Positions 1,233 through 22,968 of a DNA stretch of 64,000 nucleotides are shown here, one piece after another. The position numbers and the translations under genes were made by a program. The DNA lies in NCBI GenBank assembly GCA_963664405.1, contig OY761158.1:288001-352000 (forward strand), in the 5' to 3' direction. Below the pieces are notes generated by a model that was not told where the DNA came from, did no database searches, and saw only the letters and a program-made list of their open reading frames with translations. Position 1 is the first letter of the stretch. Each line of letters opens with the position of its first letter. Origin of the DNA: Thermoanaerobaculia bacterium. Its GTDB lineage: Bacteria; Acidobacteriota; Thermoanaerobaculia; Multivoradales; Multivoraceae.

Positions 1233-1243
1233 TGGAGGCTGCT

Positions 1244-6181: not shown

Positions 6182-6192
6182 AGGAGCGCGCC

Positions 6193-8171: not shown

Positions 8172-8177
8172 GCGAAC

Positions 8178-9449: not shown

Positions 9450-9453
9450 ATCA

Positions 9454-9555: not shown

Positions 9556-9639
9556 AGCGGTTCCCTCTACCCTGCAGGCTCGGCGTAGACGGCCGCGACC
9601 GAGTTCCGCGATGAGATGGGCGGGCGGGCTCCAGATTGC

Positions 9640-10413
9640 CTAGCCGAGCGGTCCTGCACTCAGCTCACCGCCGTCCAGAACGTAGGTGGTAGCGGTCGTG
9701 AACCTTCCTGCCTGAGTCGCCAGGGTCAACACCAGGGCCGCGATATCCTCCGGCTCCGCAATGCGGCCCATCGGGTTGATGGCGATGTTGTTTTTCTCCA
9801 CCCACTCGATCAGGCCCGCAGCCAGTTCAGTCCGGACCAGACCGGGAGCGATGGCAGCCGTGCGGATGCCGTCCTTCGCCCACTCCTTGCCGATCATCTG
9901 GCTGAAGTTGATCAACGCCGCCTTGGAGGGCGGGTAGATGCCCAGTCCTGGCGACGCCCGGACGCCCTCGTTCGACGCGATGTTGATGATCATGCCGCCG
10001 CCGCGCTCTTTCATCGTTGTCCGGCACAGCTGCGACAGTCGGATCGGTCCCCACACGTTGATGGCCATCACCCGCTGGAAGTCGTCCTCCTTCAGCTCGG
10101 CGATCGGGGTGCCGCCGCCGCCGGCGGCTGCGTTGTTGACCAGGATGTCAATGCCACCGAGCTCGGCGATCACCTGCTCGTAGAGGTCGTTGACGGCTTC
10201 GGTACTACCGACATCGGCCTGAATCGCTACTGCGCGGCGGCCAAGCTTGCGCAGCTCGCCACCGGTAGCCTCGAGTGCCTCGAGACCTCGAGCAGCGATC
10301 GCGACATCGGCTCCGTTCTCGGCAAACGCCAGGGCGATGGCACGACCGATGCCCTTGGAGCCACCGGTGACCAGCGCTACCTGGCCGTCCATGGAAAAAT
10401 CGACGATTGGCAT
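9640..10413 (-). CDS. SDR family oxidoreductase
   Basis: VTGGSKGIG, DILVNNA, YPPSK catalytic motif, APGLVRT. Confidence 0.92.
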   Translation of the reverse strand: MPIVDFSMDGQVALVTGGSKGIGRAIALAFAENGADVAIAARGLEALEATGGELRKLGRRAVAIQADVGSTEAVNDLYEQVIAELGGIDILVNNAAAGGGGTPIAELKEDDFQRVMAINVWGPIRLSQLCRTTMKERGGGMIINIASNEGVRASPGLGIYPPSKAALINFSQMIGKEWAKDGIRTAAIAPGLVRTELAAGLIEWVEKNNIAINPMGRIAEPEDIAALVLTLATQAGRFTTATTYVLDGGELSAGPLG

Positions 10414-10460
10414 GATGACCTCCGTTCCTGATTTGGTGGGTGGTTGAGCTGGGGCGACTG

Positions 10461-12170
10461 TCAGTTCGGGCCCGGGGTGCCCGCTTCGACCGGCTTGGCG
10501 TCGACGTACTCGAAGTAGGTCAGGCGCCACTCGCCGTCGCGCTCGTCGACCAGCAGGTCGAGTCCGAAATTCAGGGTGCCTCTGATCCATCGCACACCGG
10601 TGACGCTGGCGGTCGCACCCTGCCATTCGATCTTCATCGACTCGGTCTCGGCCGTGGTGCCGGCAGTGGGGCCGAGGTATTCGCGCCAGACCTCCCTCGA
10701 CGCGCCGGTGTCCGATCTGAAATCTTCGGCGACATAGGTCATCATGAGATCGAGATCCCCGGCCGTTATCGCCACCATCATCTGGCGGATCATGACAGCT
10801 ACCGCCTCGGTATCGTCCGAGCCGCGAGCCCTCCCCCCTCGCTGCGCCCCGTCGGCGGTGCGCGTGGCGGAGCTGTCGGTCGCTTTCGTGGACCGCACCG
10901 CGAGGTCGAAGCTTGCAAGATGCCCCTCGTCCTTCACGTATACCCGTGATCCGGAGAGTGCCACGTGGGCCCATGTGGCAGAGCTCGCCACCTCCCAAGA
11001 GGCCAGCTCCCGATAGCCCTCCGGGTCCGCCGCGATCACTTTGAGCTCGGCGGTGTCGGTCAGCGCGAGCAGGCGATCGCCGACGGCGATGACCGACGAG
11101 TACGCCGCCCACCGCCCCGGGCTCTGCCAGACAATCTTGCCGGTCATGGGATCGAGACAGACGAAGGTGCCGGCCCTCTTGTAGGAGCGGAAGTACAGAT
11201 AGTCGCCGACGCGCACCGGCGAATCCATGTAGAGCTCGACCTGCGTCGTCTTCCACACCTCGGTCACCTTCCAATCGCCGTCCCCTTTCGGGGGCTCGAC
11301 CTTGAGCGCCGCGGTCCCCCACTGGTAGCCCGAGAGGATGAACATGCCCTTGTAGAGGATGGTGGTGGGAGTGTTCTGGGAGAAGGCGGTTGCAATCTCC
11401 TTCGACCACAGCAGCTCACCGTCACTCGCCCGGACAGCGAAGAAGGCCACATTGCTCATCGTTACGATCTGGCGAACCCCTCCGTGAGTGAACGCCATCG
11501 GGGAGGCGTAAGCGGGCGGTCCGTCTGACCGCCAGACCTCCCTTCCGGTCGCCTTGTCGAAAGCAATCAGGGCTCCGTGATCGTCCTCATGCGCTGAGCC
11601 GGTGACGCCGACCGGGACGATGATCAGATTTCCCTCCACCAGAGGCGACGCCGCCGTTCCCCATATCGGGTAGGGCGGGTTGTAGACATCCTCGAAGGTC
11701 TTCTCCCAGCGCACCGCGCCGGACTTGGCATCCAAAGCCAGGAGGCGCTCGCGGATGCCGAAACTGTAAACCGAATCGCCTTCGGCCAGCATGGTCGACT
11801 TGGGGCCAGGGCCGTACTGGATGGCCGCGGTCGCCGGTACGTACGGAACCGTGTACGAATGCCGCCACAGCTCCTTGCCGGTGGACTTCGAAAGGGCGAG
11901 GACGACTTCTTCCTCACCCTGTCGCGCGTGGATGAAGACGCGGTCGCCGACGATGATCGGAGCGGACTGCCCAACGCCGACGTGCACCTTCCACAGACCG
12001 TGGAGGGCGGCGGGAAGCTCCGCCGGCAGCTCGCTTTCGGCAGCCACTCCGTCGCGCTGCGGCCCTCGCCACTGCGGCCAATCGGCTGCCCATGCAACCG
12101 GGCCCGAAGTGGTCAGGACGAGGGTCAGGAGCGTCAGCAGCAACACGAGGATCCATCGTCTGCCTTTCAC
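10461..12170 (-). CDS. Secreted PQQ/BamB-like beta-propeller with C-terminal NTF2-like domain
   Basis: Signal peptide, ADWPQWRGP, repeated TGKELW/SGAVRW/TGREVW blades; C-terminal GDLDLMMTYVAEDF domain; paralog at 30706-32421. Confidence 0.85.
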   Translation of the reverse strand: MKGRRWILVLLLTLLTLVLTTSGPVAWAADWPQWRGPQRDGVAAESELPAELPAALHGLWKVHVGVGQSAPIIVGDRVFIHARQGEEEVVLALSKSTGKELWRHSYTVPYVPATAAIQYGPGPKSTMLAEGDSVYSFGIRERLLALDAKSGAVRWEKTFEDVYNPPYPIWGTAASPLVEGNLIIVPVGVTGSAHEDDHGALIAFDKATGREVWRSDGPPAYASPMAFTHGGVRQIVTMSNVAFFAVRASDGELLWSKEIATAFSQNTPTTILYKGMFILSGYQWGTAALKVEPPKGDGDWKVTEVWKTTQVELYMDSPVRVGDYLYFRSYKRAGTFVCLDPMTGKIVWQSPGRWAAYSSVIAVGDRLLALTDTAELKVIAADPEGYRELASWEVASSATWAHVALSGSRVYVKDEGHLASFDLAVRSTKATDSSATRTADGAQRGGRARGSDDTEAVAVMIRQMMVAITAGDLDLMMTYVAEDFRSDTGASREVWREYLGPTAGTTAETESMKIEWQGATASVTGVRWIRGTLNFGLDLLVDERDGEWRLTYFEYVDAKPVEAGTPGPN

Positions 12171-13249
12171 TGTCTAGCCTCCCTCGATTCTCGACCTGTT
12201 GAGGTCACGCTGTGCGCCGGAAACCACGTCACTTCGTTGCGAAACTTGCTCGGTGGCTGCCCGGTCCAACGCTTGAAGGCATGCCGGAAGTTGGCCGCGT
12301 CGCTGTAGCCTAGTCGTTCGGCGATCGCCTCTACGGTCAGCTCCGATTGCGACAAGTAGCGCAGGGCGAGATCCCGGCGTACCTCAGCCACGACCTCACG
12401 GTAGGACGTACCCGCCGCGGCGAGTCGCCGCCGCACCGAGCGTCGAGAAAGGTGGAGATGATGGGCGACGTCGCTCAGCGATGCGCTCGCATCGGCATGC
12501 TCGACGTAGCTTCGCACCCGAGCGATCGGATCGGATGAGGTACGAAGCTCTTCGATCGCCGCCGCACAGAGATCGAGGCAGTGGGAATGGGTGGCGGCGT
12601 CGCGCAGGGGCAGAGCCCTGTGAAAGAGGTCGGCGCTGACGAGCAACTGCGCAGTGCGACCCGAGGGGTCGAGGGCACGGATGAGGCCGGGCCTTTGCAA
12701 GCGTGAGGCCCTCTCCAGGCGTGAGGCTCTCTCGGAATCGCAATCGCGATCGAGGTCGCAACTCCGAGGGCTAGATCCGAGGAGATCGTGCAGGATGCGT
12801 GTCAGCTTCGCAAACTCCAGGGCGAGGAAGAAATCTCGATCGTCGGTGGCGAAGGCGAAGGTGTCCTCGAAAGAGACTGCCGTGCCCTGGCCGGTGGAGC
12901 GGAGGCGAATCGAGAACTTCAGGTTGAAGAGCGGCGCCAGGCTCCCGGCAAAGAGGTCGAGGGCGTCGCTAAGACGCTCGCAGGTGAGAAGCGCGTAGCC
13001 CGCCAGGCCGAACGAGGACAGGCGTAGCTGCGAGCCGGTGGTAACCGCCAGATCGTGTGCTGGAGCGATCTCGCTGGCAGCGCGCGCGATGGCGACCTGC
13101 TCGCGCATCGAGATCTTTCGATGTCGATCTCCCGGCTCGATCCCTCGCCCTCGCAGTAGACGCTCGACGACGGAGGAAGGCGCCCCTAGGCGCACCGCGG
13201 CCGCGGCGAGGATGCAAACCTCAGAGGTGGAGTAGACGGGCTCGTCCAT
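12167..13249 (-). CDS. AraC family transcriptional regulator
   Basis: C-terminal SLSDVAHHLHLSRRSVRRRL...IAERLGYSDAANFRHAFKRWTG; start uncertain. Confidence 0.9.
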   Translation of the reverse strand: MDEPVYSTSEVCILAAAAVRLGAPSSVVERLLRGRGIEPGDRHRKISMREQVAIARAASEIAPAHDLAVTTGSQLRLSSFGLAGYALLTCERLSDALDLFAGSLAPLFNLKFSIRLRSTGQGTAVSFEDTFAFATDDRDFFLALEFAKLTRILHDLLGSSPRSCDLDRDCDSERASRLERASRLQRPGLIRALDPSGRTAQLLVSADLFHRALPLRDAATHSHCLDLCAAAIEELRTSSDPIARVRSYVEHADASASLSDVAHHLHLSRRSVRRRLAAAGTSYREVVAEVRRDLALRYLSQSELTVEAIAERLGYSDAANFRHAFKRWTGQPPSKFRNEVTWFPAHSVTSTGRESREARQ

Positions 13250-13297
13250 GCTCGGCGGCAGCCAGGGCTCGTGGCGCGTGCCGCGGCCGGCAGTCAC

Positions 13298-13466
13298 ACT
13301 AGTACATGCGGCCATAAGTACGGGTACGTTTCGAGGGACGATGCGCCTCGCCAGCAAGGCGCGTGACAGAGGCGTACCTGGCAGTACGCCGCAGGGAGCG
13401 CAACGCTGCTGGAGAGGATGCAGCGTCGCTCAAAACGTGTCCGTATTTGTGGCCGCGTGTACTAGT
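13298..13466 (+). mobile_element. MITE-like rod-shaped inverted-repeat element E1 (CTAG at both ends)
   Basis: ACTAGTACATGCGGCCATAAGTACGGGTACGTTTCGAG pairs with CTCAAAACGTGTCCGTATTTGTGGCCGCGTGTACTAGT; pairing extends to ~60 nt around core AAGGCGC..GACAGAGGCGTAC-loop-GTACGCC..GCGCAACGC. Confidence 0.75.
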
Positions 13467-13558
13467 CACCATGGACACACGAGTCGGCTCCCCACTTGCG
13501 AACACAGATGGCCGAGCGGATCCGGTCCCCGACGTCCGTTGGGGGACCGGCGGCACAG

Positions 13559-14077
13559 TCAGGCGGGCAGCTCCCCAACGAGCTCAAACCACACCTGGAC
13601 CTTGCCTTCGCTGACCAGGAACATCGCGCTGATGTTCCCTCCCGCAGGGCCTTGGGCGGTGGTGAAGGTCTCCTCACGATAGTGAAGGACCAAGTGGCCC
13701 AGCGCTTCTTCGCGCGTGATCTTGAATTCGGGATCTTTCAGGCCGGACATCACGTCCTTCATCCGGTCGACGATCGCCGCCCGGCCCTTTATCTCTGCCC
13801 GTGCCCAATCTCCGCTGGCAGAGTGGCTCATGAACCGGGCGTCCTCGGCGAGGAGGCTCGAGAAGCGATCCCAGTCACTGGCCTCCAGCGCCTTAGCGTA
13901 GTCGTGCGCGGTCTTGACATGCGCCTGCTCGTCGGCCGTTAATGCGGCGCCCGCCGAGCGCGGCAAGAAGGCCGCCGCAGCGAGTCCCATCGAGGTCGAT
14001 GCCAGTACAGTACGACGATCAACGCCGCGTCGCTTCTCGGGTATCGAAGTCATGCGCTTCCCTTTCTTCTCGGTCAT
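13559..14077 (-). CDS. Tat-signal NTF2/SnoaL-like protein
   Basis: DRRTVLASTSMGLAAAAFLPRSAGA leader; paralog of 615-1121 (shared C-terminus WFEL.GELPA). Confidence 0.7.
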   Translation of the reverse strand: MTEKKGKRMTSIPEKRRGVDRRTVLASTSMGLAAAAFLPRSAGAALTADEQAHVKTAHDYAKALEASDWDRFSSLLAEDARFMSHSASGDWARAEIKGRAAIVDRMKDVMSGLKDPEFKITREEALGHLVLHYREETFTTAQGPAGGNISAMFLVSEGKVQVWFELVGELPA

Positions 14078-14108
14078 ACGGTCCCCTTCTCGCTCATTTC
14101 AGGGATAT

Positions 14109-16925
14109 CTAGAGCCCCAAACTCAATCGCAGCCCCATCCGCCGTGGCAGGTAGTACAAGGAGGGTACGGGCTCCCTGGGGTAGCGCCCATAGCTTGCGT
14201 TCGCGAAGTAGTAATACCCCTCCTCGTTCAGGAGGTTCATAACCTGCAGGTCGACACCGAACCTGACGCGATCGCCGAGCTGGAACTGCCGCGACAGACC
14301 GAGGTCGATGAAGGTCTTGGACGGCATGCGGCGGTCGCCGGTGAACGGCTCGAGGGGCACTACCGTTACGCCCTGGTTCAGGCGTACGCGCGCCATCTGC
14401 CGCCACGGGCGGCCGTCCTCATAGTTGACAACGCCGACCCCCTGGATCTTCCAGGGCAGGTCGACCAATCCCTGAGCCCGAAACACCCACGGCCGGTCGC
14501 CCTGTAGGAAACCTCCCTGGTAGAGATGATGATTCGGATCGCGGCCCTCTGAGCCGGTGTAGAAGGCCTGGCCCTGGTTCTGGTTGAGCGGACGTTGGCT
14601 GACTCCCTTCGCCTCCGACCAGCCCAGCGACGCGTTGAGTGACCAGCGGCCGGTGTGGCGCTTGTTGAAGGTGAGAAAAACGCCCTTGTAGTCCTGCTCG
14701 AACTTCGCTAATGGAACGTTGGGGTCTGCGCTAGGGTCGTTGGCCTTGCGCAGGATGGGCTGGTCGATGATGTTCCTGAGCGTGATCGTCTCGCCCGTCA
14801 AGGGGTTGAGGTAAGGAACGTCCTCGAAGACGCCGCCGCCCTGTAGCTGCCAGCCGATGAGGTCGGTCGTTTCGGTGATGACGACCTGAGCGCCGACGGT
14901 GTAGTTCCCCAGCTGCTGCTCGTAGCCGACGGCGAACTCGTCGGTCTGCGGCCGCTCCATGCCCTCGACCGGTAGAGCGAAGTCCTCGTTGCCGACCGTG
15001 CGGAAGTAGGTGAAGGGGCCGTAGCGGTTGGGGCTGTAGCCGAAGTACGCAGACGGCCGGGTGGGGGCCGGCTGGTTCCACATCGAAACGACGTTCATCT
15101 CGTGGTATCGGCCGAGGGACGCCCGCAGCACGCCTTGCCGGCGGCCCTCGCCGACCTGGTATGCGATGCCGATACGCGGATCGACGCTGTCATAGTCGAT
15201 GACGTCGGGGACGCCGTCGCTGAACTCGCCGGTGGTCACGCCGCAGTTGAGCTGATCACAGAGGTAGGACTCGAGGATCGGTTGGGGGGGAAGCTCGCCC
15301 ACGTCGTTGTCGGCTCGCACGCCGATATTCAGCGTCAGCCTGTCGGTTATACGCCACGAATCGTCGACGTAGAGCCCGATAGCCTCTGAGTCGCCGCCGT
15401 AGTAGTGCGCGGCGCGGGAGTAGATGTAGTAGTTGGCTCCGAACTTGTAGTAGTACTTGCCGGTGAAACCGGGATAGACCGCTCCGGCCTGCTCGCCGGT
15501 CTTGCTGTACTGCACACCGAACTTGAACTCGTGGCTGCCGGCGAGGTCGTCGGCGAAGTGGGTCACCTTGGCGTGGCCGCGATTCCACCACACGGGGTAG
15601 AGGTAGGGATAGGTGGGGCCGCCGCTATGAGTCGGAATAGGCGTGTTGTAGTTGATGAGGGGCGGCTCCAAGCTGCCGGTCGCCGAGACGTTGCGGTCCT
15701 CGTTCTTAGTGTCGGAGTAGTAGGCCTCGATGATGGTGTTGGCGCCAAGCACCGACTGGTAGCCGAGACGCCAGTAGGGGACCTCCTCGTACTCGCGGCT
15801 GTAAGCACCCGGGTTGGTCTTGAAGGTTCCAGAGCCGCCGCTGGCGATCTCCAGGTCCTCGTGACGGCCGTGAGCCGTCAGCGTATTCGACGGATTGATC
15901 GACCAGTCGAGCTTGAGGCTGTAGTGCTGGGCTTCGTCGTTGCGGACGAATTCCGCGATCTCTCCCGGCTCGATCAGCAGGTCTTCCTTTTGCGTGAGCG
16001 AGGCGAAGAAGAACAGCTTGTCCTTCTGCAAAGGACCGCCCGCCCACAGGCTGTAGTTCTCGAAGGTGTCTCTCTGGAAGCCCTGCAGGTTTCCCCGGGC
16101 GTCCTCGACTGCGGTCCCCGTGGCGGTGGTGTCGTCGAACTCGCCGCTGTAGGAAAAGCGGCCGTGGAAGATGTTGGTTCCGGACTTGGTGACGACGTTG
16201 ACCGCGGCGCCGGTCATGTTGCCGTACTCCGCCGGGGCGCCGACGCCGAGCACCTGGACTTCGGCGATGGTGTCGGGGTCGGTCCAGCCACCGAAGATGT
16301 TGCCGTTGTCCGGGAAGCTGCCGTCGAGTCCATCGACGTTCCAGGCCACCGAGGCTTGATCACGACCGTAGGCCGAGGGGTGCCCCGCATAGGCTCCGAC
16401 ATTGCCGAGGCGACCGGTCATGTTCATGCCGGGCGCCATCAGGGCGAGCTCCTGGAAGTTCCCCGTGGTCGACGGCTTCGCATCGAGCAGCTCTTCTGCG
16501 AAGCTGACGCTGGCCGAAGAGCTAGTCACATCGAGGATCGCTGCCTCCGAGGTCACCGTGATCGCCTCTTCGACGGCTTCGGGACGCATCGTCAGGTTCA
16601 CGCTGGCCACACCGGAGATGGAGACGCGGACCCCTTCGACGGTCTCGGTCTCCAGCCCTTGGAGACTCGCGGTCACAGTCACCCGTCCCGGAGGGAGGCT
16701 GGGGATCAACCACTCGCCGGTGGCTCCGGTCGTCGAGATACGCTCACCGCGTACGACGTCGCCCGTTACCTGGACCCGCACGCCGGGGAGCGGCTCCCCA
16801 TCTGCCGAAGTGACGGTTCCACGCACAGTGCCGACGTTTTGGGCGTAGACGGCCGCAGCAGGTACCAGCGCAACTGCGAGAAGAACGAGAGGTACTGCCG
16901 GCGAGACAAAGGAACGTAGCCGCAT
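14109..16925 (-). CDS. TonB-dependent receptor with N-terminal carboxypeptidase-regulatory-like domain
   Basis: Signal peptide, GTVRGTVTSADGEPLPGV, plug motif APAEYGNMTGAAVNVVTKSGTN, YVDDSWRITDRLTLNIGVR; GGAGG RBS before ATG 16925. Confidence 0.92.
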   Translation of the reverse strand: MRLRSFVSPAVPLVLLAVALVPAAAVYAQNVGTVRGTVTSADGEPLPGVRVQVTGDVVRGERISTTGATGEWLIPSLPPGRVTVTASLQGLETETVEGVRVSISGVASVNLTMRPEAVEEAITVTSEAAILDVTSSSASVSFAEELLDAKPSTTGNFQELALMAPGMNMTGRLGNVGAYAGHPSAYGRDQASVAWNVDGLDGSFPDNGNIFGGWTDPDTIAEVQVLGVGAPAEYGNMTGAAVNVVTKSGTNIFHGRFSYSGEFDDTTATGTAVEDARGNLQGFQRDTFENYSLWAGGPLQKDKLFFFASLTQKEDLLIEPGEIAEFVRNDEAQHYSLKLDWSINPSNTLTAHGRHEDLEIASGGSGTFKTNPGAYSREYEEVPYWRLGYQSVLGANTIIEAYYSDTKNEDRNVSATGSLEPPLINYNTPIPTHSGGPTYPYLYPVWWNRGHAKVTHFADDLAGSHEFKFGVQYSKTGEQAGAVYPGFTGKYYYKFGANYYIYSRAAHYYGGDSEAIGLYVDDSWRITDRLTLNIGVRADNDVGELPPQPILESYLCDQLNCGVTTGEFSDGVPDVIDYDSVDPRIGIAYQVGEGRRQGVLRASLGRYHEMNVVSMWNQPAPTRPSAYFGYSPNRYGPFTYFRTVGNEDFALPVEGMERPQTDEFAVGYEQQLGNYTVGAQVVITETTDLIGWQLQGGGVFEDVPYLNPLTGETITLRNIIDQPILRKANDPSADPNVPLAKFEQDYKGVFLTFNKRHTGRWSLNASLGWSEAKGVSQRPLNQNQGQAFYTGSEGRDPNHHLYQGGFLQGDRPWVFRAQGLVDLPWKIQGVGVVNYEDGRPWRQMARVRLNQGVTVVPLEPFTGDRRMPSKTFIDLGLSRQFQLGDRVRFGVDLQVMNLLNEEGYYYFANASYGRYPREPVPSLYYLPRRMGLRLSLGL

Positions 16926-16961
16926 CAGCCAATCCTCCGGGAAAGCCCGCCATGTCATTTT

Positions 16962-17003
16962 TAGGTCGACGACCCATTGTTGCATAGTCGAGGACCATGT
17001 CAA
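16962..17003 (-). promoter_or_regulatory. TBDR promoter with two operator-like palindromes
   Basis: Perfect -35 TTGACA (17003-16998); two related imperfect palindromes TGGTCCTCGACTA and GGGTCGTCGACCTA in and just after the spacer; TetR gene adjacent. Confidence 0.5.
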
Positions 17004-17130
17004 GCCCCAGAAATGCGACTTTGCTCCGCGACGCCACGAAGTGGCGCCATGAAGTGGGTCTACGTTGCCGAGCAGAGCATCGCAGTCTCTCTGTCGAGAC
17101 GCGACAGGCGTCACGCCGGATGCAACAGAC

Positions 17131-17814
17131 TCAGCGCTCTGCGATCCACAAGACGGAGGCTACGACTTCGTCCTCATAGGACGGGTGTCTCAGCCCGCGT
17201 ATGCTCTCGAGAGTCTCGGCTGGCATCATCGAAGTACCGTCGATCATCGCCGTGACGAGGACGGCCTTGAGCCGCAGTTGGCTCGCGGTCGCTCCCGGCT
17301 CGAGCTCTCTCAGAATCGGAGTCAACAGCTCGTAGTTGCGCTCCCAGAGCTCGTGCCGGAGAGCCCGGAACCGTGGACTCTGCTGCGCAGAGTCGGCGAG
17401 AGCCCTCCAGATTGGGACGTGGGTCGTCCCAGCGGGGCCATCCTCCCACCGTGCGATGAAGGCGCGGGTGATGGCAGCCAACCGGTCCCTGGGCTTCTCT
17501 TCGCGCGCGCAGAGCAAATCGATCAGCTCGCAGTCGGAATCGGACTCGGCACGAAACAGCGCCGCGAGCAGATCTTCTCGGGTCGGGAAGTAGTATTGGA
17601 GGTTCCCTAACGAGATCTCGAGGTCTTTGGCCACACTGCGCAAGAGACCGGAGCCGTTTTCGGAGTCGCCCAGTTGAGCGCGGGCCGCGTCGAGGATCTC
17701 CTCACGTCGACGAAGGCCCTTCGCCCCGTGGCGATTCCGTCCCTTCTGAGCTCCTGGACTCTGCTCTCCAGATCTCTTCTCGTCGACCTGTGAGCCTTCG
17801 TCAGAAGTTGGCAT
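17131..17814 (-). CDS. TetR family transcriptional regulator
   Basis: RREEILDAA...LRSVAKDLEISLGNLQYYFPTREDLL helix-turn-helix. Confidence 0.9.
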   Translation of the reverse strand: MPTSDEGSQVDEKRSGEQSPGAQKGRNRHGAKGLRRREEILDAARAQLGDSENGSGLLRSVAKDLEISLGNLQYYFPTREDLLAALFRAESDSDCELIDLLCAREEKPRDRLAAITRAFIARWEDGPAGTTHVPIWRALADSAQQSPRFRALRHELWERNYELLTPILRELEPGATASQLRLKAVLVTAMIDGTSMMPAETLESIRGLRHPSYEDEVVASVLWIAER

Positions 17815-17914
17815 GAGCGGCCCGACCGTCGCACGCCGGGCCCTTGGCGCGCCGGGTCGACGGCAGACCAGCCTAACGAGAACTACTCGCCTGTCCGATT
17901 ACTCGGACACCCTC

Positions 17915-18328
17915 CTAGGGCGCCGGAATCAGCTTAGCGGCAACTGCCACGACCGCCTCCGCCTCCACCGACGCCTTCTCCGCGTCGGTGGCGCTGTATC
18001 GCTCAGTCGGTATGAAGTCGACGTCGCCGTAGAACGAGAACTCTCGCTCCTTTCGCAGCCAGGCCGAGGTAAGCGCCAGAGAGTCGAGCGAGGAGCGCAC
18101 CGGCTCCGGGAAGCGATCGGAGAACTCGAGCAGCAGGGGCCCGACGTCGTGCCACTTGGGTGGGTCGATGCCCACCTGTCGCAGCATCCCCTTCAGAGCC
18201 AACTCCACGATCTCCTGCGCCTCGCGCATGACGTCGGAGAACGCGTCCTCTTCCGTCAGCACGGGCAGGATCTTGAGCCGCTTCGTCGCTTTGACGAGAT
18301 AGCTCTGCGCCAGCGTCGAGTTGGTCAT
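17915..18328 (-). CDS. HEPN domain protein (putative toxin)
   Basis: AQEIVELALKG, PPKWHDV, REFSFYGD; ATGA-coupled to the upstream MNT gene. Confidence 0.85.
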   Translation of the reverse strand: MTNSTLAQSYLVKATKRLKILPVLTEEDAFSDVMREAQEIVELALKGMLRQVGIDPPKWHDVGPLLLEFSDRFPEPVRSSLDSLALTSAWLRKEREFSFYGDVDFIPTERYSATDAEKASVEAEAVVAVAAKLIPAP

Positions 18329-18828
18329 AGCTCGAAGATGTCTCCCGGTCGGTAGTCGGGTTTCAAGTCCCAGTACCAGCCGCCGGCTCGACGGACCCGC
18401 CGGGCTCCGAGCGTGGCAAGTCGCTCCGCGAGTCGGGCCAGCTCGTCAGCGAAGAAGCCGTCCCGATCGATCAGGAGGCGAGAGTCCTCAACCATGTCGA
18501 GGAAGAGCGGGCTACCGATGCGCACTTCGTCGGGGGTCTTGAAAATGGGTGAGAGGTAGGTCTCGAGGCCCGAGTCACGAGCCGCGCTCATCACGGGCCG
18601 CAGTCTGCGCTCCACCTCCGCGAACTCCTCGACTCGGGGCATCCTTCCCTCCGGAAGCCGGTTCGCGACCACGAGTAGGTCGACGTCGGAGTCGGGGCGC
18701 GCGCTGCCCCGCCCCACCGAGCCGAAAACAACGAGAGACACCAGCCGATCCCCGTACACCTCGAGGCAGGCCGCCTCCAACTCGCCCAGAAGGCCGTCTA
18801 TCAGAGCCCTATGTCCGTACCGAGCCAT
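18325..18828 (-). CDS. Minimal nucleotidyltransferase (MNT) antitoxin
   Basis: GSX10DXD motif FGSVGRGSARPDSDVD. Confidence 0.88.
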   Translation of the reverse strand: MARYGHRALIDGLLGELEAACLEVYGDRLVSLVVFGSVGRGSARPDSDVDLLVVANRLPEGRMPRVEEFAEVERRLRPVMSAARDSGLETYLSPIFKTPDEVRIGSPLFLDMVEDSRLLIDRDGFFADELARLAERLATLGARRVRRAGGWYWDLKPDYRPGDIFEL

Positions 18829-18884
18829 CGGCTCATTATGCCAGACGGATCCCCCTCAGGGGACAATGCGTACGGCAGGGCAGC

Positions 18885-20534
18885 CTAACGACCACGCGCC
18901 CTCAGGACTTTCTCCAGCTCCAGGCAAGCTGCACGCTCGCCCAGGTCACACCCTCTGGAATAGAGCTCGATGGCCCTGGCCTCGTCCCGGGGAACGCCGC
19001 TCCCGTGAGCGTGGGCATACGCCAGTAAGTAGCAGCTGACGCCGTCGCCGCCGTCACAGCCCTCGGGAAGCTGTGCGATCGCATTGGCGACCCCAGCAGA
19101 CGTGATCGAGACATTGCGGTCGAGAAGGGCCTGAATGGCCACGTTGACGCAGCCTCTGTAGAAGCCGCTGGTGCAGGCCTGATCGAAGTAGGAAATGCCC
19201 TGCAGCGGATCCAGTGGGGTGATCTCTCCCTGGTTGAAGAGCACTCCCATCAGATTGCATTCTTCACCGGACCCTGCGGCGCACTGGGACTCGAGAATGA
19301 CCAGCAGGTTGTCGCAAGCATTACGCCGTCCTTCTTCGCAGGCGGCCTGCCAGAACGTAAACCTGGCGCCTTCGTGCGTACTGCCGACGAAATTCGACGC
19401 CAACATCCAACCGAAGAGGCCGATCCACACCGCCATGAAAACGAGATTGACCCGCTGCGACCTCGTCGCTCCGCCGAGGAGGGGCACTTTCAGGCTGTCC
19501 ACGCGTCGCGATCTCCCCACTCTGTCGAGCATGCGGACGCTTAGGTTCAGAAGAGGTACGGCCAGGAGCTTGTCGTAGAACAGTGGCGCGTCGACGTAGG
19601 CCAGGAGCTCCCAGAAGGCCATCACACTTGCTCCGTAGAGGCCGCCGAAAATGGCGCTGCCAACTCTGCTCCGGGGCGAGGTCGAAGGGTCTGTCACCAA
19701 CAGGTGAAGACCGAGGAAAACCGCGATGGGGATGCTTGCATCGACGAAGAAATAGACTCCCGTGAGGCTGGAATAGAGGAGGTTCAACCCCACCAATGTC
19801 GCCACCGCCGACACCGTCACGATCGTCACCGAGAAGAAGTACTGCACCACCAGCCCCGCCAGGAAGATCGCCACATACATGTGGGGGGCGTCGAGGAGTG
19901 TGGTCGCGATCTCCAGTCCCCAGGTGAGCTCTGTTCTGTCGGTCAGGATCAAAGCGATCGAGAAGACCGACAGAGCGAAGCCCGAGGGATTGAAGATGTG
20001 CCTCGCTTGGCCGTCTCTCTGCCATTTGAAGAGCTCCTTACCGAGGCTGCCTACTGCGATCATCGCAAACTGCAGGTAGAACCAGTCGTCTCTGAAGCAC
20101 AAGAAGAAGTTGGTGCTGAGGATGATCGGAAACTGGCCGAAGCCGAGGAACCAGGTCTTCCGCCTCGACCAGACGAGGAGCATGTCGAAGGCGTAGGCAA
20201 AGACGATCTGCGCCAGGATGAGCCAAGCCTGGTGCCGCATCTGCTCCCAGTGCCAGGCCCAGTAGATATAGACGCAGATCTGGACGGAGGCCTGGACGTA
20301 ATGCGACGGGAAGAGAGCGACTTTGAATTCCAGCCTGCGGCCTTGACGGATGGAGTTGGTCAGCAACCAGGCTTGAAAGAGAAGCAGGGCGGCGCAGGCC
20401 CCCCACAACGAACGGCTCAGCTCCGCGCTGGTGCGGAAAGCGGGAACCAAAGAGAGGACGAAGAGGAGGAGCGTCAGCGAAGCAGGCAGCCAAAAAGCCG
20501 GTTGTTGGCTCAGCGCCTTCTTGACGTCGGTCAT
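18885..20534 (-). CDS. Polytopic membrane protein (RnfD/NqrB-like) with C-terminal Sel1-like repeats
   Basis: HIFNPS and VTDPSTSP motifs resemble RnfD; Cys-containing repeats FWQAACEEG, YFDQACTSG, YSRGCDLG. Confidence 0.65.
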   Translation of the reverse strand: MTDVKKALSQQPAFWLPASLTLLLFVLSLVPAFRTSAELSRSLWGACAALLLFQAWLLTNSIRQGRRLEFKVALFPSHYVQASVQICVYIYWAWHWEQMRHQAWLILAQIVFAYAFDMLLVWSRRKTWFLGFGQFPIILSTNFFLCFRDDWFYLQFAMIAVGSLGKELFKWQRDGQARHIFNPSGFALSVFSIALILTDRTELTWGLEIATTLLDAPHMYVAIFLAGLVVQYFFSVTIVTVSAVATLVGLNLLYSSLTGVYFFVDASIPIAVFLGLHLLVTDPSTSPRSRVGSAIFGGLYGASVMAFWELLAYVDAPLFYDKLLAVPLLNLSVRMLDRVGRSRRVDSLKVPLLGGATRSQRVNLVFMAVWIGLFGWMLASNFVGSTHEGARFTFWQAACEEGRRNACDNLLVILESQCAAGSGEECNLMGVLFNQGEITPLDPLQGISYFDQACTSGFYRGCVNVAIQALLDRNVSITSAGVANAIAQLPEGCDGGDGVSCYLLAYAHAHGSGVPRDEARAIELYSRGCDLGERAACLELEKVLRARGR

Positions 20535-20587
20535 GCCGGAGTCCTCGGGCTCAGCTTATCCCAGGCAACACCGTTGCCCCGCGACGA

Positions 20588-20768
20588 CCTAGAGCAGCGT
20601 TTCCAAAGTTCGCGACACTTATCTCGGCCCCTTCTGCCCGCTGGCGGCGTTGGCTGGGCGCCCCCGCGCTCCTCGACAGATTCCCAATATGCCTGCGTCG
20701 GCGCGCCTGGCCAGCGAACAGAATGACCTCGAGCTATGCGACTCGAACTTCGGAAACGCTGGTCTAGG
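20588..20768 (-). mobile_element. MITE-like rod-shaped inverted-repeat element E2 (CTAG at both ends)
   Basis: CCTAGAGCAGCGTTTCCAAAGTTCG pairs with CGAACTTCGGAAACGCTGGTCTAGG; minus-strand core CAGGCGCGCCGACGCAGGCATAT-loop-ATCTGTCGAGGAGCGCG..CAACGC. Confidence 0.75.
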
Positions 20769-20844
20769 ACCTGACGGATGGACGCGATGGAGTCCGCTAT
20801 GACCCTGGCATAGAGCCAACAATATGATAGTGTCTCGACCCAAC

Positions 20845-21087
20845 ATGGCCGCCAAGGCAGTGCAGATCTCGATAGACGAACAGCTGCTCCAGCGAATCGA
20901 CTTGGATCCGGAAGTCGTCGCCGCCGGGAGGTCGGCGTTCATCCGCAATGCTGTGGAGCACTACTTGCGCGAGCGCGCAAGGCGGATGCGCGACGAGCAG
21001 ATCACTAGCGCCTACCGTGCCCAGGGCGACGCGATGCAGAGCGAGATCGCCGAGCTCCTCGAGGATCAGCTGTGGCCGAACGAGTGA
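20845..21087 (+). CDS. Ribbon-helix-helix antitoxin (MazE/CopG-like)
   Basis: AVQISIDEQLLQRID...RSAFIRNAV; overlaps the toxin gene; CTATG-N7-CATAG palindrome at 20797-20813. Confidence 0.85.
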   Translation: MAAKAVQISIDEQLLQRIDLDPEVVAAGRSAFIRNAVEHYLRERARRMRDEQITSAYRAQGDAMQSEIAELLEDQLWPNE

Positions 21088-21398
21088 GCCGCGGGCAAAT
21101 CTGGCTCCTCGACCTGCCAAAGCCCGACAAGCGCCGTCCAGTGCTGGTGCTGAGCCGACAGTCATTGATTGACGTATTGGGCACGGTCACGGTGGTCGCG
21201 ATCACCAGCACCCTTCGCGGCTCACCGACCGAGGTTGAGCTCGGTGTGGGCGAGGGCCTCAAACACACCTCCTGCGCCAATCTTTGCAATCTGTTGACGG
21301 TTCCGCAGCGCCAGCTGCGCACATTCGTGGGCGGTGTGAGCTCCGACAAACTCAAGCACGTCTGCGCTGCTCTGGTCGTCGCCTGCGGCTGCGACTGA
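21072..21398 (+). CDS. mazF: MazF/PemK family toxin
   Basis: RGQIW..DL...KRRPVLVLS, VVAITST motifs. Confidence 0.9.
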   Translation: MAERVSRGQIWLLDLPKPDKRRPVLVLSRQSLIDVLGTVTVVAITSTLRGSPTEVELGVGEGLKHTSCANLCNLLTVPQRQLRTFVGGVSSDKLKHVCAALVVACGCD

Positions 21399-21440
21399 GC
21401 TCGACGCGCCGGCGTGGGAGTTTTGACGGCGACGAATATA

Positions 21441-21456
21441 TATGTAATTCTACATA
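21441..21456. promoter_or_regulatory. Operator-like palindrome upstream of vapBC
   Basis: TATGTA-ATTC-TACATA in an AT-rich patch after TTGACG, 2 nt before the ATG. Confidence 0.6.
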
Positions 21457-21458
21457 CA

Positions 21459-21710
21459 ATGAGCACGAAGACAGTCGCTCTCGATTCGAGGGTCTACGAA
21501 CGGCTGGCCTCGGCCAAAAAGGAGGGCGAGTCGTTCTCGAAAGCGATCGACCGACTTCTCACCAAGGTCGAGTCGGCGCACACCGGGAGCGACATCTTGC
21601 TTGGGCTCGACGGGTTTTCGGCGCTCTCGCCGGAGGATTCGCCGAAGTTCCTCGAGGTCGTTCGGGAGAACCGGGCTGGAGAGGCATGGCAGCGCCGTGA
21701 TCTGCGTTGA
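21459..21710 (+). CDS. vapB: VapB-type antitoxin (DUF217-like)
   Basis: MSTKTVALDSRVYERLASAKKEGESFSKAIDRL. Confidence 0.85.
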   Translation: MSTKTVALDSRVYERLASAKKEGESFSKAIDRLLTKVESAHTGSDILLGLDGFSALSPEDSPKFLEVVRENRAGEAWQRRDLR

Positions 21711-22098
21711 CACCACCTTTCTCGTAGATCTGTGGCGGGAGAAGGGGCTGCAGAGCTCGGCGCCGGGGACATTACTTGCCGCCCATCGCGCTGAGGACTT
21801 CGCGGTTCCTGCCCATGCGGCAGGAGAGTTCCTCGAGGGTGGAGCCTCGGTCTCCCGGGAGAGAATGGCGGAATCTCTCCGTTTCCTGAGGCTCTTCCGA
21901 ATCGGCGGAGTCGGGATCGAGACCGCTCTCCACTACGCGCAAATCGTCGCGTACCTCCGTCGTGACAACAGCCTCAGCGGCAGGTCGGAGCCAGATCTTT
22001 GGATCGCCGCCTGGGCAATCGAGCACGCTGCGCCGCTCGCCACCCGGAACACGAGGCATTTTCAGCAAGTGCCGGATTTGGACCTTCTCGACTACTAG
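21697..22098 (+). CDS. vapC: VapC PIN-domain toxin
   Basis: CVDTTFLVD, GEFLEG, DLWIAA, LATRNTRHF; GTG start overlaps the antitoxin gene. Confidence 0.9.
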   Translation: MICVDTTFLVDLWREKGLQSSAPGTLLAAHRAEDFAVPAHAAGEFLEGGASVSRERMAESLRFLRLFRIGGVGIETALHYAQIVAYLRRDNSLSGRSEPDLWIAAWAIEHAAPLATRNTRHFQQVPDLDLLDY

Positions 22099-22125
22099 GT
22101 GCCTTTAATCGCTCAACCCGTGACG

Positions 22126-22392
22126 TATGGCTCAAGTTTTCCTCGAAGCGAACTCGTGCCGCCGGCCGTTCAGGGTGCCCCAGATCGCCGCAGCGCAGGA
22201 GCGAGGCGACAGAGGCGTACTTAGGCCCAGGAGCCTGCGTAGCAGGAGAGTGGTTCTCAGGCGGGGATGGGCCGGAGAAAGGGCCGAAGGGCCGTTCTCC
22301 GGGGCTACCTCGGAGGAGCCGAGCGACGAGCACGCGGTGAGGTGGGGCGCCCTGGACGGCCGGCGATGAGACCACGTCTGACTTGGGCCGTG
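22126..22392 (+). repeat. Rod-shaped inverted-repeat element E3 with enlarged apical insert
   Basis: CGCCGGCCGTTCAGGGTGCCCCA (22160-22182) pairs with TGGGGCGCCCTGGACGGCCGGCG (22343-22365); outer TATGGCTCAAGT/ACTTGGGCCGTG; core GACAGAGGCGTAC identical to E1. Confidence 0.7.
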
Positions 22393-22968
22393 ACCGTGGC
22401 GCTGGCGGCGCTCGCCGTCGTCGCCGTGCTCGCTCTGCGCTCGGCACGGGAGAGCCGCGCGCAGGCGGCTCTCGCCGACATTCTGGTCGCCTTCGAGCCG
22501 CCCTTCGACCCCGCCTCGCCGGAGCCTTCGGATCTCGAGGCGCCGTCGTTCGCCACCGGGAGCGAACGCAGCGCGCCGGCCCGGCAGCGCTTCGCGCGAC
22601 TGATCGAGGAGCATGAGGGCAGCGCGGCAGCCGAGGTCGCGCGGGTCTACCTCGCCGACCTGGAGGCGAGGGCCGGCAGATTCGTCCAGGCCCGCGAGAT
22701 CTGGCAAGGTCTGGCCGAGGGTGGCGACGACGAGCTGGCGGCGATCGCGGAGCTCAACCTCATTCGCCTCGACCGCAAGGAAGGTCGGCTGGAAGAGCTG
22801 GTGTCGACGCTCGAAAGTCGCCTCGAGAGCCAGGAGAGCAGCCTGCCGACGGATGTGCTCCTCTTCGAGCTCGCCAGCACTCTCGAGCAGCTCGGACGGC
22901 ACGAGGAGGTCGGGAGGATCAAACGCTTCGAGGAGGTGGTCCCGGAAGGGGGTCGAGTACGAAGGTGA
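22366..22968 (+). CDS. Membrane-anchored TPR protein (YfgM-like)
   Basis: N-terminal TM helix followed by TPR-like helices (ARVYLADLEARAG..AREIW; LFELASTLEQLG). Confidence 0.65.
   Translation: MRPRLTWAVTVALAALAVVAVLALRSARESRAQAALADILVAFEPPFDPASPEPSDLEAPSFATGSERSAPARQRFARLIEEHEGSAAAEVARVYLADLEARAGRFVQAREIWQGLAEGGDDELAAIAELNLIRLDRKEGRLEELVSTLESRLESQESSLPTDVLLFELASTLEQLGRHEEVGRIKRFEEVVPEGGRVRR

What the first reader, a model, noticed from the sequence alone, without database searches (positions are those of the whole stretch)
13298..22392. Family of rod-shaped repeat elements: unrelated termini around one conserved structured core
Seen: three non-coding elements (13298-13466 +, 20588-20768 -, 22126-22392 +) each fold into a long imperfect rod. 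Their arms are unrelated in sequence, but the centre is shared: (A/C)AGG-stem-GAC.(G/C)AGGCRTAY-loop-...-G(A/C)(A/G)GGA-stem-(A)ACG. GACAGAGGCGTAC is identical in two copies. Transition mismatches in the arms are mostly G-U/G-T compatible on the strand carrying the core (+, -, + respectively; 5 of 6 in the outer stem of E1), which points to selection on a single-stranded fold and not just on DNA symmetry. Inference: a structured RNA or ssDNA module carried between different IS-derived ends, i.e. a passenger-bearing MITE family, or an undescribed ncRNA, protein-binding site or ribozyme-like motif. I cannot assign it to a named RNA family.
Basis: partly seen in the sequence, partly recalled or inferred. 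Interest (0 to 1): 0.85.

Follow-up and report, generated by a model that had tools for sequence, protein, structure and literature searches.

The report
Hairpin mini-transposons sharing one folded core
The three elements are copies of small gene-less jumping elements (MITEs) that insert at CTAG, and they all carry one conserved, strand-specific folded core that also occurs in several other bacterial phyla and whose job is still unknown.

Summary
E1 (13299-13465, +) and E2 (20589-20767, -) are complete CTAG-bounded hairpin MITEs of two families (about 15 and 130 full copies). E3 is a third family (22095-22364) whose core is split by a nested 79-nt repeat (22227-22305).

The genome holds 295 copies of one shared core, in at least 9 arm families, mostly 165-168 nt long. 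A model built without families A and C still finds E1 (E 3e-10) and C copies. Between families the arms are 33-48% identical and the core 74-82%.

The core fold (P1-P2-P3, tandem G.A, conserved G.U) shows compensatory changes within the genome, across Acidobacteriota (42 of 151 sampled genomes) and in multicopy form in Geobacteraceae, Bdellovibrio, Gemmatimonadota, Brocadiaceae and Omnitrophota.

Family consensuses carry 51 G.T wobbles against 3 A.C mismatches on the core strand. Orientation is biased by replichore (180:115) but not by neighbouring genes.

The ends of family A, and less clearly B, fam8 and fam10, resemble a resident IS630-type element.

There is no Rfam match, and five full-text searches found no description. 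Earlier AI notes of this scan report similar CTAG-bounded, conserved-core MITEs on other DNA.

The role of the core is unresolved. My best guess is a cis-acting propagation module read in a single-stranded fold.

The parts
13299..13465 (+). E1: complete family-A hairpin MITE (167 nt), bounded by CTAG at 13299-13302 and 13462-13465
   Evidence: 15 full copies at 80-97% identity, all CTAG...CTAG. RNA fold -113.1 kcal/mol sense against -94.5 antisense. DNA fold -58.9 against -52.0. Ends match IS630a at 19/30 after CTAG, reached by 0 of 3000 shuffles.
13339..13423 (+). Core of E1 (P1-P2-P3). The apical hairpin pairs GGCGTAC 13371-13377 with GTACGCC 13384-13390.
   Evidence: R1 77.3 bits. R2, the leave-family-out model, 45.1 bits, E 3.4e-10.
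20589..20767 (-). E2: complete family-B hairpin MITE, long-core variant (179 nt; modal B length 166), bounded by CTAG at 20589-20592 and 20764-20767
   Evidence: 232 B loci, 130 of them full length. Length classes 164-167 and 177-180. RNA fold -97.0 sense against -81.8 antisense. DNA fold -54.0 against -47.0.
20630..20726 (-). Core of E2, with a 13-nt insert between the GAGGA loop and P2'
   Evidence: R1 67.6 bits. R2 59.1 bits, E 4e-14, with the alignment shown.
22095..22226 (+). E3, left part of a family-C element: CTAG (its TAG is the stop of the PIN gene), a non-palindromic 5' tail, the left arm and the 5' half of the core
   Evidence: Intact C copies elsewhere, e.g. genome 728960-729135. 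C cores are found by R2. PIN domain in 21601-22098.
22227..22305 (+). Nested family-D repeat (hairpin-rich) that interrupts the C core
   Evidence: 74 D loci in the genome, also nested in B copies. DNA-run contigs of other C copies skip 22226->22306.
22306..22364 (+). E3, right part of the family-C element: 3' half of the core and the right arm. The terminal CCTAG of other copies is missing here, and ATG 22366 of the next gene follows.
   Evidence: BLAST of E3 positions 181-240 against intact C copies. C consensus ends ...GGCCGGCCCTAG. TPR_21 protein from 22366.

Best explanation
SHOWN. The elements belong to a superfamily of hairpin MITEs of about 165 nt. They are non-coding and multicopy, they are bounded by CTAG, and they have terminal inverted repeats. 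Their outer arms differ between families. In this genome the arms of at least family A resemble the ends of a resident IS630-type (DDE_3) insertion sequence. All families carry the same apical core of about 85 nt. The core consists of helix P1, an AAGG/AACG internal loop, helix P2, a tandem G.A/A.G step, an isolated C-G pair that can swap to G-C, a purine loop, and hairpin P3 with a conserved G.U(T) wobble. The core is far better conserved than the arms, it keeps its pairing through compensatory changes, and it occurs in multicopy rods in several phyla.

INFERRED. A DDE transposase supplied in trans (IS630-type here, possibly other families elsewhere) cuts and pastes the element at TA within CTAG. 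The core is a cis-acting module selected in the source copies, and it is read as a single-stranded fold of one defined strand. That fold could be a sense transcript or an extruded or replicative ssDNA hairpin. I think it most likely is bound by a protein (the transposase or a host factor) in a way that raises the chance of being mobilised.

My odds: about 0.9 that this is a MITE superfamily with a conserved strand-specific folded core, and about 0.35 for the propagation-module role. The confidence given for this entry (0.7) is for the shown part together with DDE mobilisation, not for the role of the core.
For: Copies. 295 core hits in the genome, 147 on + and 148 on -, in at least 9 arm clusters. 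181 of the 295 have clean CTAG...CTAG bounds, and lengths are 165-168 nt in 7 clusters.

Ends. After CTAG, the IS630a ends match family A at 19/30 (reached by 0 of 3000 shuffles), fam10 at 18/30 (0 of 3000) and B at 16/30 (p 3e-4), out of 128 comparisons. IS630a is a CTAG-bounded 1245-bp element carrying an HTH ORF and a DDE_3 ORF.

Core against arms. Mean identity between 7 family consensuses is 0.33-0.48 in the arms and 0.74-0.82 in the core.

Structure. On the MAFFT alignment A1, 86.6% of cells are paired against 26-49% for slid partners, and 18 of 24 pairs have changes on both sides. On 30 hits from 29 relatives the figures are 90.9% and 23 of 24. On 79 hits from the collection-wide scan they are 90.9% against 25-46% slid. 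The last two alignments are fitted to the model.

Leave-family-out detection of A and C.

Strand specificity. There are 51 G.T against 3 A.C over 8 family consensuses, and the sense fold is 5-37 kcal/mol more stable. Rare variants in the large B family are symmetric (11 G.T against 10 A.C), which points to selection or bias acting before insertion rather than on resident copies.

Replichore bias. 180:115, p 1.8e-4, in the same direction in 8 of the 10 multi-copy arm clusters, with only 52% of ORF calls co-oriented with replication.

Spread. 32 of 41 genomes of the order at E<=1e-3. 42 of 151 sampled genomes of the phylum at E<=1e-5 (the tally includes G088, an unpublished genome). Multicopy outside the phylum: 53, 6, 5, 5 and 3 matches in a Geobacteraceae MAG, a Brocadiaceae MAG, a Gemmatimonadota MAG, Ca. 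Velamenicoccus and Bdellovibrio bacteriovorus Bd5.
Against: No transposition event, empty site or RNA end was observed. The duplication length (TA or CTAG) cannot be told from the sequence. No known DDE mechanism of the IS630 or IS5 type needs a single-stranded or hairpin form of the whole element, so the proposed role of the core has no precedent that I know of (recalled knowledge).

Partner assignment is firm only for family A. For B it is borderline after correction for 128 tests. For fam2 against the IS5-type IS1730 it is not significant (p 0.003-0.017), despite a 13-nt identical start.

The wobble excess could come from a strand-biased C>T or A>G mutation process in transcribed source copies rather than from selection on the fold. 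The family consensuses share some wobble positions (about 42/127, 50-51 and 76/93), so 51:3 overstates the number of independent events.

Orientation relative to flanking ORF calls is unbiased (58 sense against 67 antisense in tandem contexts). That speaks against a cis effect of resident copies on host mRNAs, but not against an RNA role in source copies.

Copy divergence does not differ between the two replichore orientations (B: median 0.039 in both, p 0.69). The replichore bias is therefore not explained by slow loss of one orientation.
Confidence: 0.7

Rival explanations
1. The core acts at the RNA level in cis on the transcripts that contain it, for example as a processing site, a 3'-end protector, a terminator or an insulator. 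This would make insertions tolerable or useful to the host. The MITE is only its vehicle.
For: The conserved G.U wobble, the tandem G.A steps and the compensatory changes are typical of RNA motifs. The sense RNA fold is much more stable than the antisense fold. Copies are enriched between convergent genes (86 of 254 intergenic copies, against 902 of 4241 intergenic gaps genome-wide). 68 of 181 clean copies sit on a TAG stop of an abutting ORF call.
Against: There is no orientation bias relative to flanking ORF calls (58:67), although the two orientations give different RNAs. Rare variants in the B family show no wobble preference (11:10). Enrichment at stop codons and convergent gaps is also what purifying selection on random CTAG insertions would leave behind.
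Confidence: 0.2
2. The core is a double-stranded DNA site for an architectural protein (IHF/HU-like, as reported for the centre of Neisseria Correia elements) that bends the short element so that its two ends can meet in the transpososome.
For: It sits exactly at the centre of elements of about 165 bp, roughly one persistence length of DNA. Length is conserved across families. It is conserved irrespective of end type.
Against: Helices P2 and P3 change sequence while keeping complementarity, which a sequence-reading dsDNA binder would not require. The wobble excess (51:3) and the conserved G.T are meaningless in duplex DNA. I saw no IHF-like consensus by eye (recalled motif, not scanned).
Confidence: 0.15
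3. The core has no function. It is a passive stuffer that looks conserved because the superfamily is young, spreads horizontally, and swaps only its outer arms by recombination with IS ends.
For: Nearly identical ends occur in different phyla: CTAGTGTCCCGTGCGG in Geobacteraceae and delta-proteobacterial MAGs against fam8 here. This points to horizontal spread. The arms do show IS-like ends.
Against: The arms between the terminal repeat and the core are also diverged to near saturation (0.39-0.48) yet stay complementary. The core shows many independent compensatory pair types (64-68 further pair types) with invariant unpaired purines. The wobble and replichore asymmetries need a strand-specific process.
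Confidence: 0.12
4. The elements are single-strand transposons of the REPIN/RAYT or IS200/IS605 kind, moved as ssDNA hairpins by a Y1 (HUH) transposase. CTAG would then be the cleavage word rather than a duplication.
For: There is strand-specific hairpin stability and a replication-linked orientation bias. The genome has 13 weak Y1_Tnp-like ORFs (22-39 bits). A CTAG target followed by an element ending in CTAG would look the same as a duplication.
Against: Only 1 of the 13 Y1-like ORFs lies within 1 kb of a core. The more stable strand lies on the leading-strand template in 61% of copies, opposite to what is described for IS200/IS605 (recalled). The ends match an IS630-type DDE element. One relative has TTAA on both sides and another CTCAG, like DDE duplications.
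Confidence: 0.05
5. The three loci are genes for a free-standing structured RNA or ribozyme that serves the host, not mobile DNA.
For: Covariation and no coding potential.
Against: There are 295 copies in both orientations in unrelated contexts, with terminal inverted repeats and CTAG bounds and IS-like ends. Other elements are nested in them. I saw no shared promoter-like motif by eye (not scanned). No Rfam ribozyme or RNA family matches.
Confidence: 0.04

Closest known systems
MITEs attributed to IS630/Tc1-mariner transposases (e.g. RUP of Streptococcus pneumoniae, MITEEc1; names recalled, and MITEEc1_IS630 is listed in PMC11602168, passages seen)
   Same: Small non-coding multicopy elements with terminal inverted repeats like those of an IS630-type element, and insertion at TA within CTAG-like words. 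Here family A matches IS630a at 19/30 after CTAG.
   Different: Here many families with diverged ends share one internal, strand-specific folded core that is conserved across phyla. No such conserved passenger is reported for those elements in what I read.
Correia elements (CREE/NEMIS) of Neisseria and ERIC/YPAL of enterobacteria: hairpin-forming MITEs (table and text of PMC3184786, passages seen; details recalled)
   Same: Imperfect palindromes of 100-200 bp that fold into long rods when transcribed, lie in intergenic regions and have a TA-type target. Correia has a functional central site (IHF), which I recall rather than read.
   Different: No sequence relation was tested, because no reference copies were on hand. 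Those families are genus- or family-restricted with one set of ends. A wobble excess on one strand and a replichore bias are not among the features I know of for them.
REPIN/RAYT systems and GTAG/CGTC-tagged REPs (PMC3733652 and bioRxiv 10.1101/2021.07.10.451892, abstracts seen in listings)
   Same: Hairpin-forming dispersed repeats that persist over long evolutionary times, with a presumed single-strand form.
   Different: REPs are 20-40 nt with the conserved tag at the foot and a RAYT gene flanked by them. Here the conserved part is at the apex, the feet vary, and the Y1-like ORFs are not linked.
Chunjie MITE of Geobacter uraniireducens (description in PMC3184786 and PMC10969869, passages seen; the original paper is not held)
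   Same: A hairpin MITE in a Geobacter genome with very stable RNA folds.
   Different: Chunjie is A+T-rich, 178-235 bp, with 21-bp repeats and 9-bp duplications. The Geobacteraceae copies found here are about 165 nt and CTAG-bounded. It is not the same family.

Membership tests
Prokaryotic MITE (non-autonomous DDE transposon) | Short, non-coding, many dispersed copies | tested here: met
   A has 16 loci, B 232, C 56 and D 74 by blastn. nhmmer finds 295 core hits. Neighbouring genes are unrelated to each other.
Prokaryotic MITE (non-autonomous DDE transposon) | Terminal inverted repeats | tested here: met
   The left end and the reverse-complemented right end of 8 families agree over 20-30 nt. 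Family C is an exception: its left side is a non-palindromic tail.
Prokaryotic MITE (non-autonomous DDE transposon) | Target-site duplication | tested here: inconclusive
   CTAG lies on both sides in 181 of 295 copies by a strict rule. Relatives show TTAA/TTAA, GTAG/GTAG and CTCAG/CTCAG. TA, TNA or 4-bp duplications cannot be told apart, and no empty site was seen.
Prokaryotic MITE (non-autonomous DDE transposon) | Ends shared with an autonomous IS in the same genome | tested here: met
   Met for family A and fam10 against IS630a (19/30 and 18/30, reached by 0 of 3000 shuffles). Borderline for B (16/30, p 3e-4 over 128 tests). Not significant for fam2 against the IS5-type IS1730. blastn found no full-length IS with ends identical to a MITE family.
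Prokaryotic MITE (non-autonomous DDE transposon) | Evidence of movement (filled against empty sites) | tested here: inconclusive
   Only indirect evidence: within-family identity of 85-98%, nested insertions, and adjacent elements sharing one CTAG. The one run set laid showed no presence/absence polymorphism of E1 or E2.
REPIN/RAYT | Y1 (RAYT) gene flanked by the repeats; conserved tag at the hairpin foot | tested here: not met
   1 of 13 Y1_Tnp-like ORFs lies within 1 kb of a core. The feet vary between families.
IS200/IS605-derived palindromic elements | Active strand on the lagging-strand template; no inverted ends of DDE type | tested here: not met
   The stable strand lies on the leading-strand template in 180 of 295 copies. 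The ends resemble those of IS630. The expected direction is recalled knowledge.
Any Rfam 15 family | Match at the gathering score | tested here: not met
   0 matches in the whole window at gathering. No match at E<=5 overlaps the three elements in 13000-22700.

The most novel reading that the evidence does not exclude
The conserved core is a previously undescribed functional nucleic-acid motif that works in a single-stranded fold of one defined strand, as RNA or ssDNA. It gives otherwise unrelated DDE-type MITEs their ability to multiply, for instance by recruiting a transposase or host factor to a hairpin intermediate. MITE amplification in many bacterial phyla would then depend on a structured cis element rather than on the terminal repeats alone.
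Probability: 0.25. Interest if true: 0.85.

Novelty: new variant of a known kind. Interest (0 to 1): 0.6.

Why it matters
MITEs are usually thought to need only their terminal repeats, with the interior free to drift. Here the interior is the best conserved part. It keeps one fold through compensatory changes across families with diverged ends and across several phyla. It also carries two independent strand asymmetries: a wobble excess and a replichore bias.

If the core promotes mobilisation, it would point to a single-stranded step or cofactor in the spread of DDE-type MITEs. It would also make a long-standing puzzle, why some MITE families amplify to hundreds of copies, testable with simple mutants.

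In practice the covariance model gives a marker for annotating a large class of repeats that break assemblies of soil Acidobacteriota and other MAGs. Many matches lie at contig ends.

Tried and rejected
(1) Expression. One search for runs found two metatranscriptome runs holding 8-13% of the words of 13000-22700. Their Logan contigs cover neighbouring genes and only 37-84-nt pieces of B-type arms that run on into other loci. They give no strand, ends or level, so there is no verdict on transcription.

(2) A RAYT link was rejected.

(3) Chunjie is a different element. The original paper could not be read.

(4) A search for a full-length IS with the same 24-36-nt ends as any MITE family found only solo ends and copies interrupted by other ISs.

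(5) The third DUF772 locus (2345809-2346018) has no recognisable inverted ends.

(6) A weak model hit at window 57568-57630 (17.5-19 bits) is not a rod (z +0.27), so I treat it as chance.

(7) Three of the 80 loci from the collection scan that I searched have no rod and no model match, so I treat them as chance pattern hits: L096 Sphingomicrobium, L114, and L135 Roseomonas.

(8) The exact core pattern has 0 matches in the viral contig collection, and E2 has no blastn match in PLSDB plasmids. This holds at those sensitivities only.

(9) I tested age against replichore orientation and found no difference.

(10) A coding reading of the core was set aside by eye: there is no start codon, and the insertions are 13 nt or otherwise of non-triplet length. 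No tool test was run.

(11) Literature. Five full-text searches and passages of PMC10969869, PMC3184786 and PMC11602168 gave no description of this core. Supplementary MITE catalogues of PMC11602168 were not opened and may contain members.
Full report
WHAT IS THERE

The window is G000:C1:288001-352000 of a 6.78-Mb, 62.6% G+C single-contig genome. Earlier notes of this scan call it an uncultured Acidobacteriota genome.

All three flagged stretches fold much better than shuffles. blastn against the genome shows that they are dispersed repeats.
- E1 is family A: 16 loci, 15 of them full length, at 80-97% identity.
- E2 is family B: 232 loci, 130 of them full length.
- E3 is composite. Its positions 1-101 and 181-240 are family C, with intact copies such as genome 728960-729135. 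Positions 104-180 are a separate repeat of about 77 nt, family D, with 74 loci. D also sits inside B copies.
- Contigs of a DNA run that come from other C copies skip 22226->22306.

The real limits are the CTAG words:
- E1: 13299-13465.
- E2: 20589-20767.
- E3: the C element starts at the CTAG 22095-22098, whose TAG is the stop codon of a PIN-domain gene. It ends at 22364, and ATG 22366 of a TPR_21 gene follows.

The neighbouring genes have nothing in common: an AraC regulator, a SnoaL-like protein, a TonB-dependent receptor, a Sel1 protein, a MazF-like protein and a PIN protein.

THE SHARED CORE IS REAL, BUT THE 13-MER IS NOT THE EVIDENCE

The identical GACAGAGGCGTAC results from private changes. 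14 of 15 A copies read GACTG..., and C copies read GACG[C/T]A.... A harsh local alignment of the E1 and E2 cores is not significant.

Profile methods settle the question.
- An HMM of the core finds 295 copies, 147 on + and 148 on -.
- Clustering their left arms gives at least 9 arm families, of sizes 134, 35, 27, 22, 18+7, 15, 14, 10 and 8, plus singletons.
- 181 of the 295 have clean CTAG...CTAG bounds. Lengths are 165-168 nt in seven families, 183 nt in one, and 177-180 nt in a B variant to which E2 belongs.
- Covariance model R2 was built from 16 sequences of families B, 1, 2, 3, 7, 8 and 10 only. It finds E1 at 45.1 bits (E 3.4e-10 in the window), two more A copies, and two C copies at 29.7 and 25.4 bits.
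- In the window only E1 and E2 have an intact core, because E3's core is interrupted by D.
- Between seven family consensuses, mean identity is 0.33-0.48 along the arms and 0.74-0.82 in the core.

ANATOMY OF THE CORE

Read on the core strand, the order is:
1. helix P1, which is the inner end of the rod;
2. CAAGG opposite CAACG;
3. helix P2 of 4-5 bp, for example CGCC/GGCG, GCGAC/GUCGU, GCUCC/GGAGC;
4. a tandem G.A/A.G step;
5. one isolated C-G pair that becomes G-C in fam2, in one fam8 copy and in a whole genus of relatives;
6. a 3x2 purine loop;
7. hairpin P3 of 7-8 bp, with a G.U(T) wobble next to its closing G-C.

The counts on the alignments are as follows.
- MAFFT alignment A1 (22 sequences): 86.6% of cells pair, against 26-49% when the partners are slid, and 18 of 24 pairs show changes on both sides. 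The wobble is present in 18 of 22 sequences.
- 30 hits from 29 genomes of the same order: 90.9% paired, 23 of 24 pairs.
- 79 hits from the collection-wide pattern scan: 90.9% paired against 25-46% slid.

The last two alignments are fitted to the model. In the last one some columns are fixed by the search pattern, so only P1, P2 and the outer P3 pairs are informative there.

Rfam has no match.

TWO STRAND ASYMMETRIES

(a) In the MFE folds of eight family consensuses there are 51 G.T pairs and 3 A.C 1x1 mismatches on the core strand. The other 1x1 mismatches are mostly purine-purine. The sense fold is 5-37 kcal/mol more stable than the antisense fold. The same holds for E1 and E2 under RNA and DNA parameters. 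Some wobble positions are shared between related families, so the events are fewer than 54.

Rare variants (2 copies or fewer) give 42 G.T against 16 A.C overall, but 11 against 10 in the 90 B copies analysed, where rare variants are most likely to have arisen after insertion. The bias therefore seems to arise in the lineages that give rise to copies, not in resident copies.

(b) Orientation is unrelated to flanking ORF calls: 58 sense against 67 antisense in tandem contexts. These are crude ORF-based gene calls. Orientation is related to replication: the stable strand is the leading-strand template in 180 of 295 copies (p 1.8e-4), in the same direction in 8 of the 10 multi-copy arm clusters, while only 52% of ORF calls are co-oriented with replication. 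Divergence from the family consensus does not differ between the two orientations.

WHO MOVES THEM

The genome is full of insertion sequences. I compared the first 30 nt after CTAG of 16 MITE ends with 8 IS ends, 128 comparisons in all.
- The IS630-type element IS630a stands out. It is 1245 bp, CTAG-bounded, and carries an HTH ORF and a DDE_3 ORF.
- Family A matches it at 19/30 on both ends, and fam10 at 18/30. No shuffle out of 3000 reached either value.
- B matches at 16/30 (p 3e-4) and fam8 at 15/30 (p 0.001-0.005).
- The IS5-type IS1730 (DUF772 + DDE_Tnp_1) shares its first 13 nt with fam2, but the 30-nt comparison is not significant after correction.
- In a Gemmatimonadetes MAG (L110) the core lies between CTAAG-flanked ends that resemble the ISAzo13-type IS2024 of this genome (p 0.002-0.004). 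This is suggestive only.

The arms are thus IS-derived, and at least partly diverged versions of one IS family's ends. They are not wholly unrelated sequences. I cannot tell a TA duplication from a 4-bp one.

Thirteen weak Y1_Tnp-like ORFs are not linked to the rods.

SPREAD

- Model R1 matches 32 of 41 genomes of the same order at E<=1e-3.
- It matches 42 of 151 genomes drawn evenly from the phylum at E<=1e-5. This tally includes the unpublished genome G088.
Most are Acidobacteriota, Thermoanaerobaculia, Terriglobia or Vicinamibacterales MAGs. Others are Geobacteraceae, Bdellovibrionaceae and Bdellovibrio bacteriovorus Bd5, Myxococcota, Gemmatimonadota, Brocadiaceae, Planctomycetia and Ca. 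Velamenicoccus.
- I searched 80 of those loci with R2, and 77 contain a model match.
- Folds show the same rod with the core at its apex, often CTAG-bounded. There are also shorter versions, about 104 nt in Bdellovibrio.
- Five non-Acidobacteriota genomes hold 53, 6, 5, 5 and 3 matches.
- There was no exact-pattern match in viral contigs and no blastn match in plasmids.

HOW IT MOST LIKELY WORKS

Shown: these are hairpin MITEs with IS-like ends, and they carry a conserved, strand-specific, folded apical core.

Inferred: mobilisation is by a DDE transposase in trans, at TA within CTAG. The core is under purifying selection in the copies that found new families and bursts, and it is read as a fold of one strand. 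Either a sense transcript or an ssDNA hairpin would fit the wobble excess. The replichore bias favours a DNA-level, replication-linked step. The conserved G.U and tandem G.A look more like an RNA or protein-binding motif.

I put about 0.35 on a cis-acting propagation module bound by a protein, 0.2 on an RNA-level cis effect on host transcripts, 0.15 on a duplex bending site, 0.12 on no function, and less on ssDNA transposons or a host RNA gene.

No expression verdict was possible from the contigs available.

COMPARISON AND NOVELTY

The elements work like the hairpin MITEs attributed to IS630-type transposases, and like Correia or ERIC elements. They meet the MITE criteria that can be tested by sequence. 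They do not meet the criteria for REPIN/RAYT or IS200/IS605 derivatives.

What differs from described MITEs is the internal core. It is conserved across many end families and several phyla, with structure-preserving changes and strand asymmetries.

Five full-text searches and three papers read in passages gave no description. I did not check the supplementary catalogues.

Earlier AI notes of this scan describe CTAG-bounded MITEs with a conserved core in other genomes, and attribute them variously to IS630 or to IS5/IS1182. Whether that is the same core as here I did not check by sequence: a look-up with the E1 core found no look-alike stretch in the scan's index. Those notes prompted my IS630 check, which I tested here.

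I rate this a new variant of a known kind, of moderate to high interest because the role of the core is open and directly testable.

Noticed in passing
window 22227-22305; genome e.g. 5542671-5542747, 2209173-2209249: Family D is a repeat of about 77 nt (a 63-nt short form is common), with a strong internal hairpin (CCGGAGAAC...GTTCTCCGG) and 74 loci. It is nested in the core region of C (E3) and, in at least 12 B copies, at a CTAG-containing variant of the P1/P2 junction. It may be the hairpin repeat on TAG stops noted earlier in this genome.
   Followed up: partly
L001 (genome 6758500-6762000) and L002 (6272000-6275500): Two B copies are interrupted at the same position in the core by a 2.6-kb element that encodes a tyrosine integrase-like ORF (299 aa) and a 398-aa ORF that looks like an IS91-type transposase by eye (not scanned against Pfam). 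This is either a duplicated composite or a target preference for the core.
   Followed up: partly
genome 3899107-3900717, 3365430-3367041, 5335102-5336760: IS110-family elements (DEDD_Tnp_IS110 + Transposase_20) abut MITE or D-repeat ends directly at CTAG.
   Followed up: partly
genome 5242308-5242871 and 5447648-5448060: Family-C rods occur as tandem arrays, with periods of about 219 nt and 109 nt, unlike the other families.
   Followed up: no
whole genome: CTAG is strongly under-represented: 7502 observed against about 23,230 expected from base composition. 68 of 181 clean MITE copies have a flanking CTAG that is the TAG stop of an abutting ORF call, against 831 of all 7502 CTAG words.
   Followed up: partly
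window 1138-12091 and 54505-55892: The window also holds an IS copy of 1.87 kb (window 1138-3005), a 9.1-kb segment duplicated at genome 2613877-2622954, and a copy of a 1.39-kb IS present 11 times.
   Followed up: no
whole genome: Cumulative GC skew puts the origin near 2.74 Mb and the terminus near 6.76 Mb, giving unequal replichores of about 4.0 and 2.8 Mb.
   Followed up: no
genome, 13 loci (e.g. 6395045-6395956, 2207920-2208825): Thirteen ORFs of 300-440 aa have weak Y1_Tnp (IS200-like/RAYT-like) matches of 22-39 bits, and they are not linked to the rods.
   Followed up: partly
window 20824-21398: An 87-aa ORF without a Pfam match overlaps the start of a MazF/PemK-like toxin ORF. This is probably a type II toxin-antitoxin pair, and it lies directly beside E2.
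   Followed up: no
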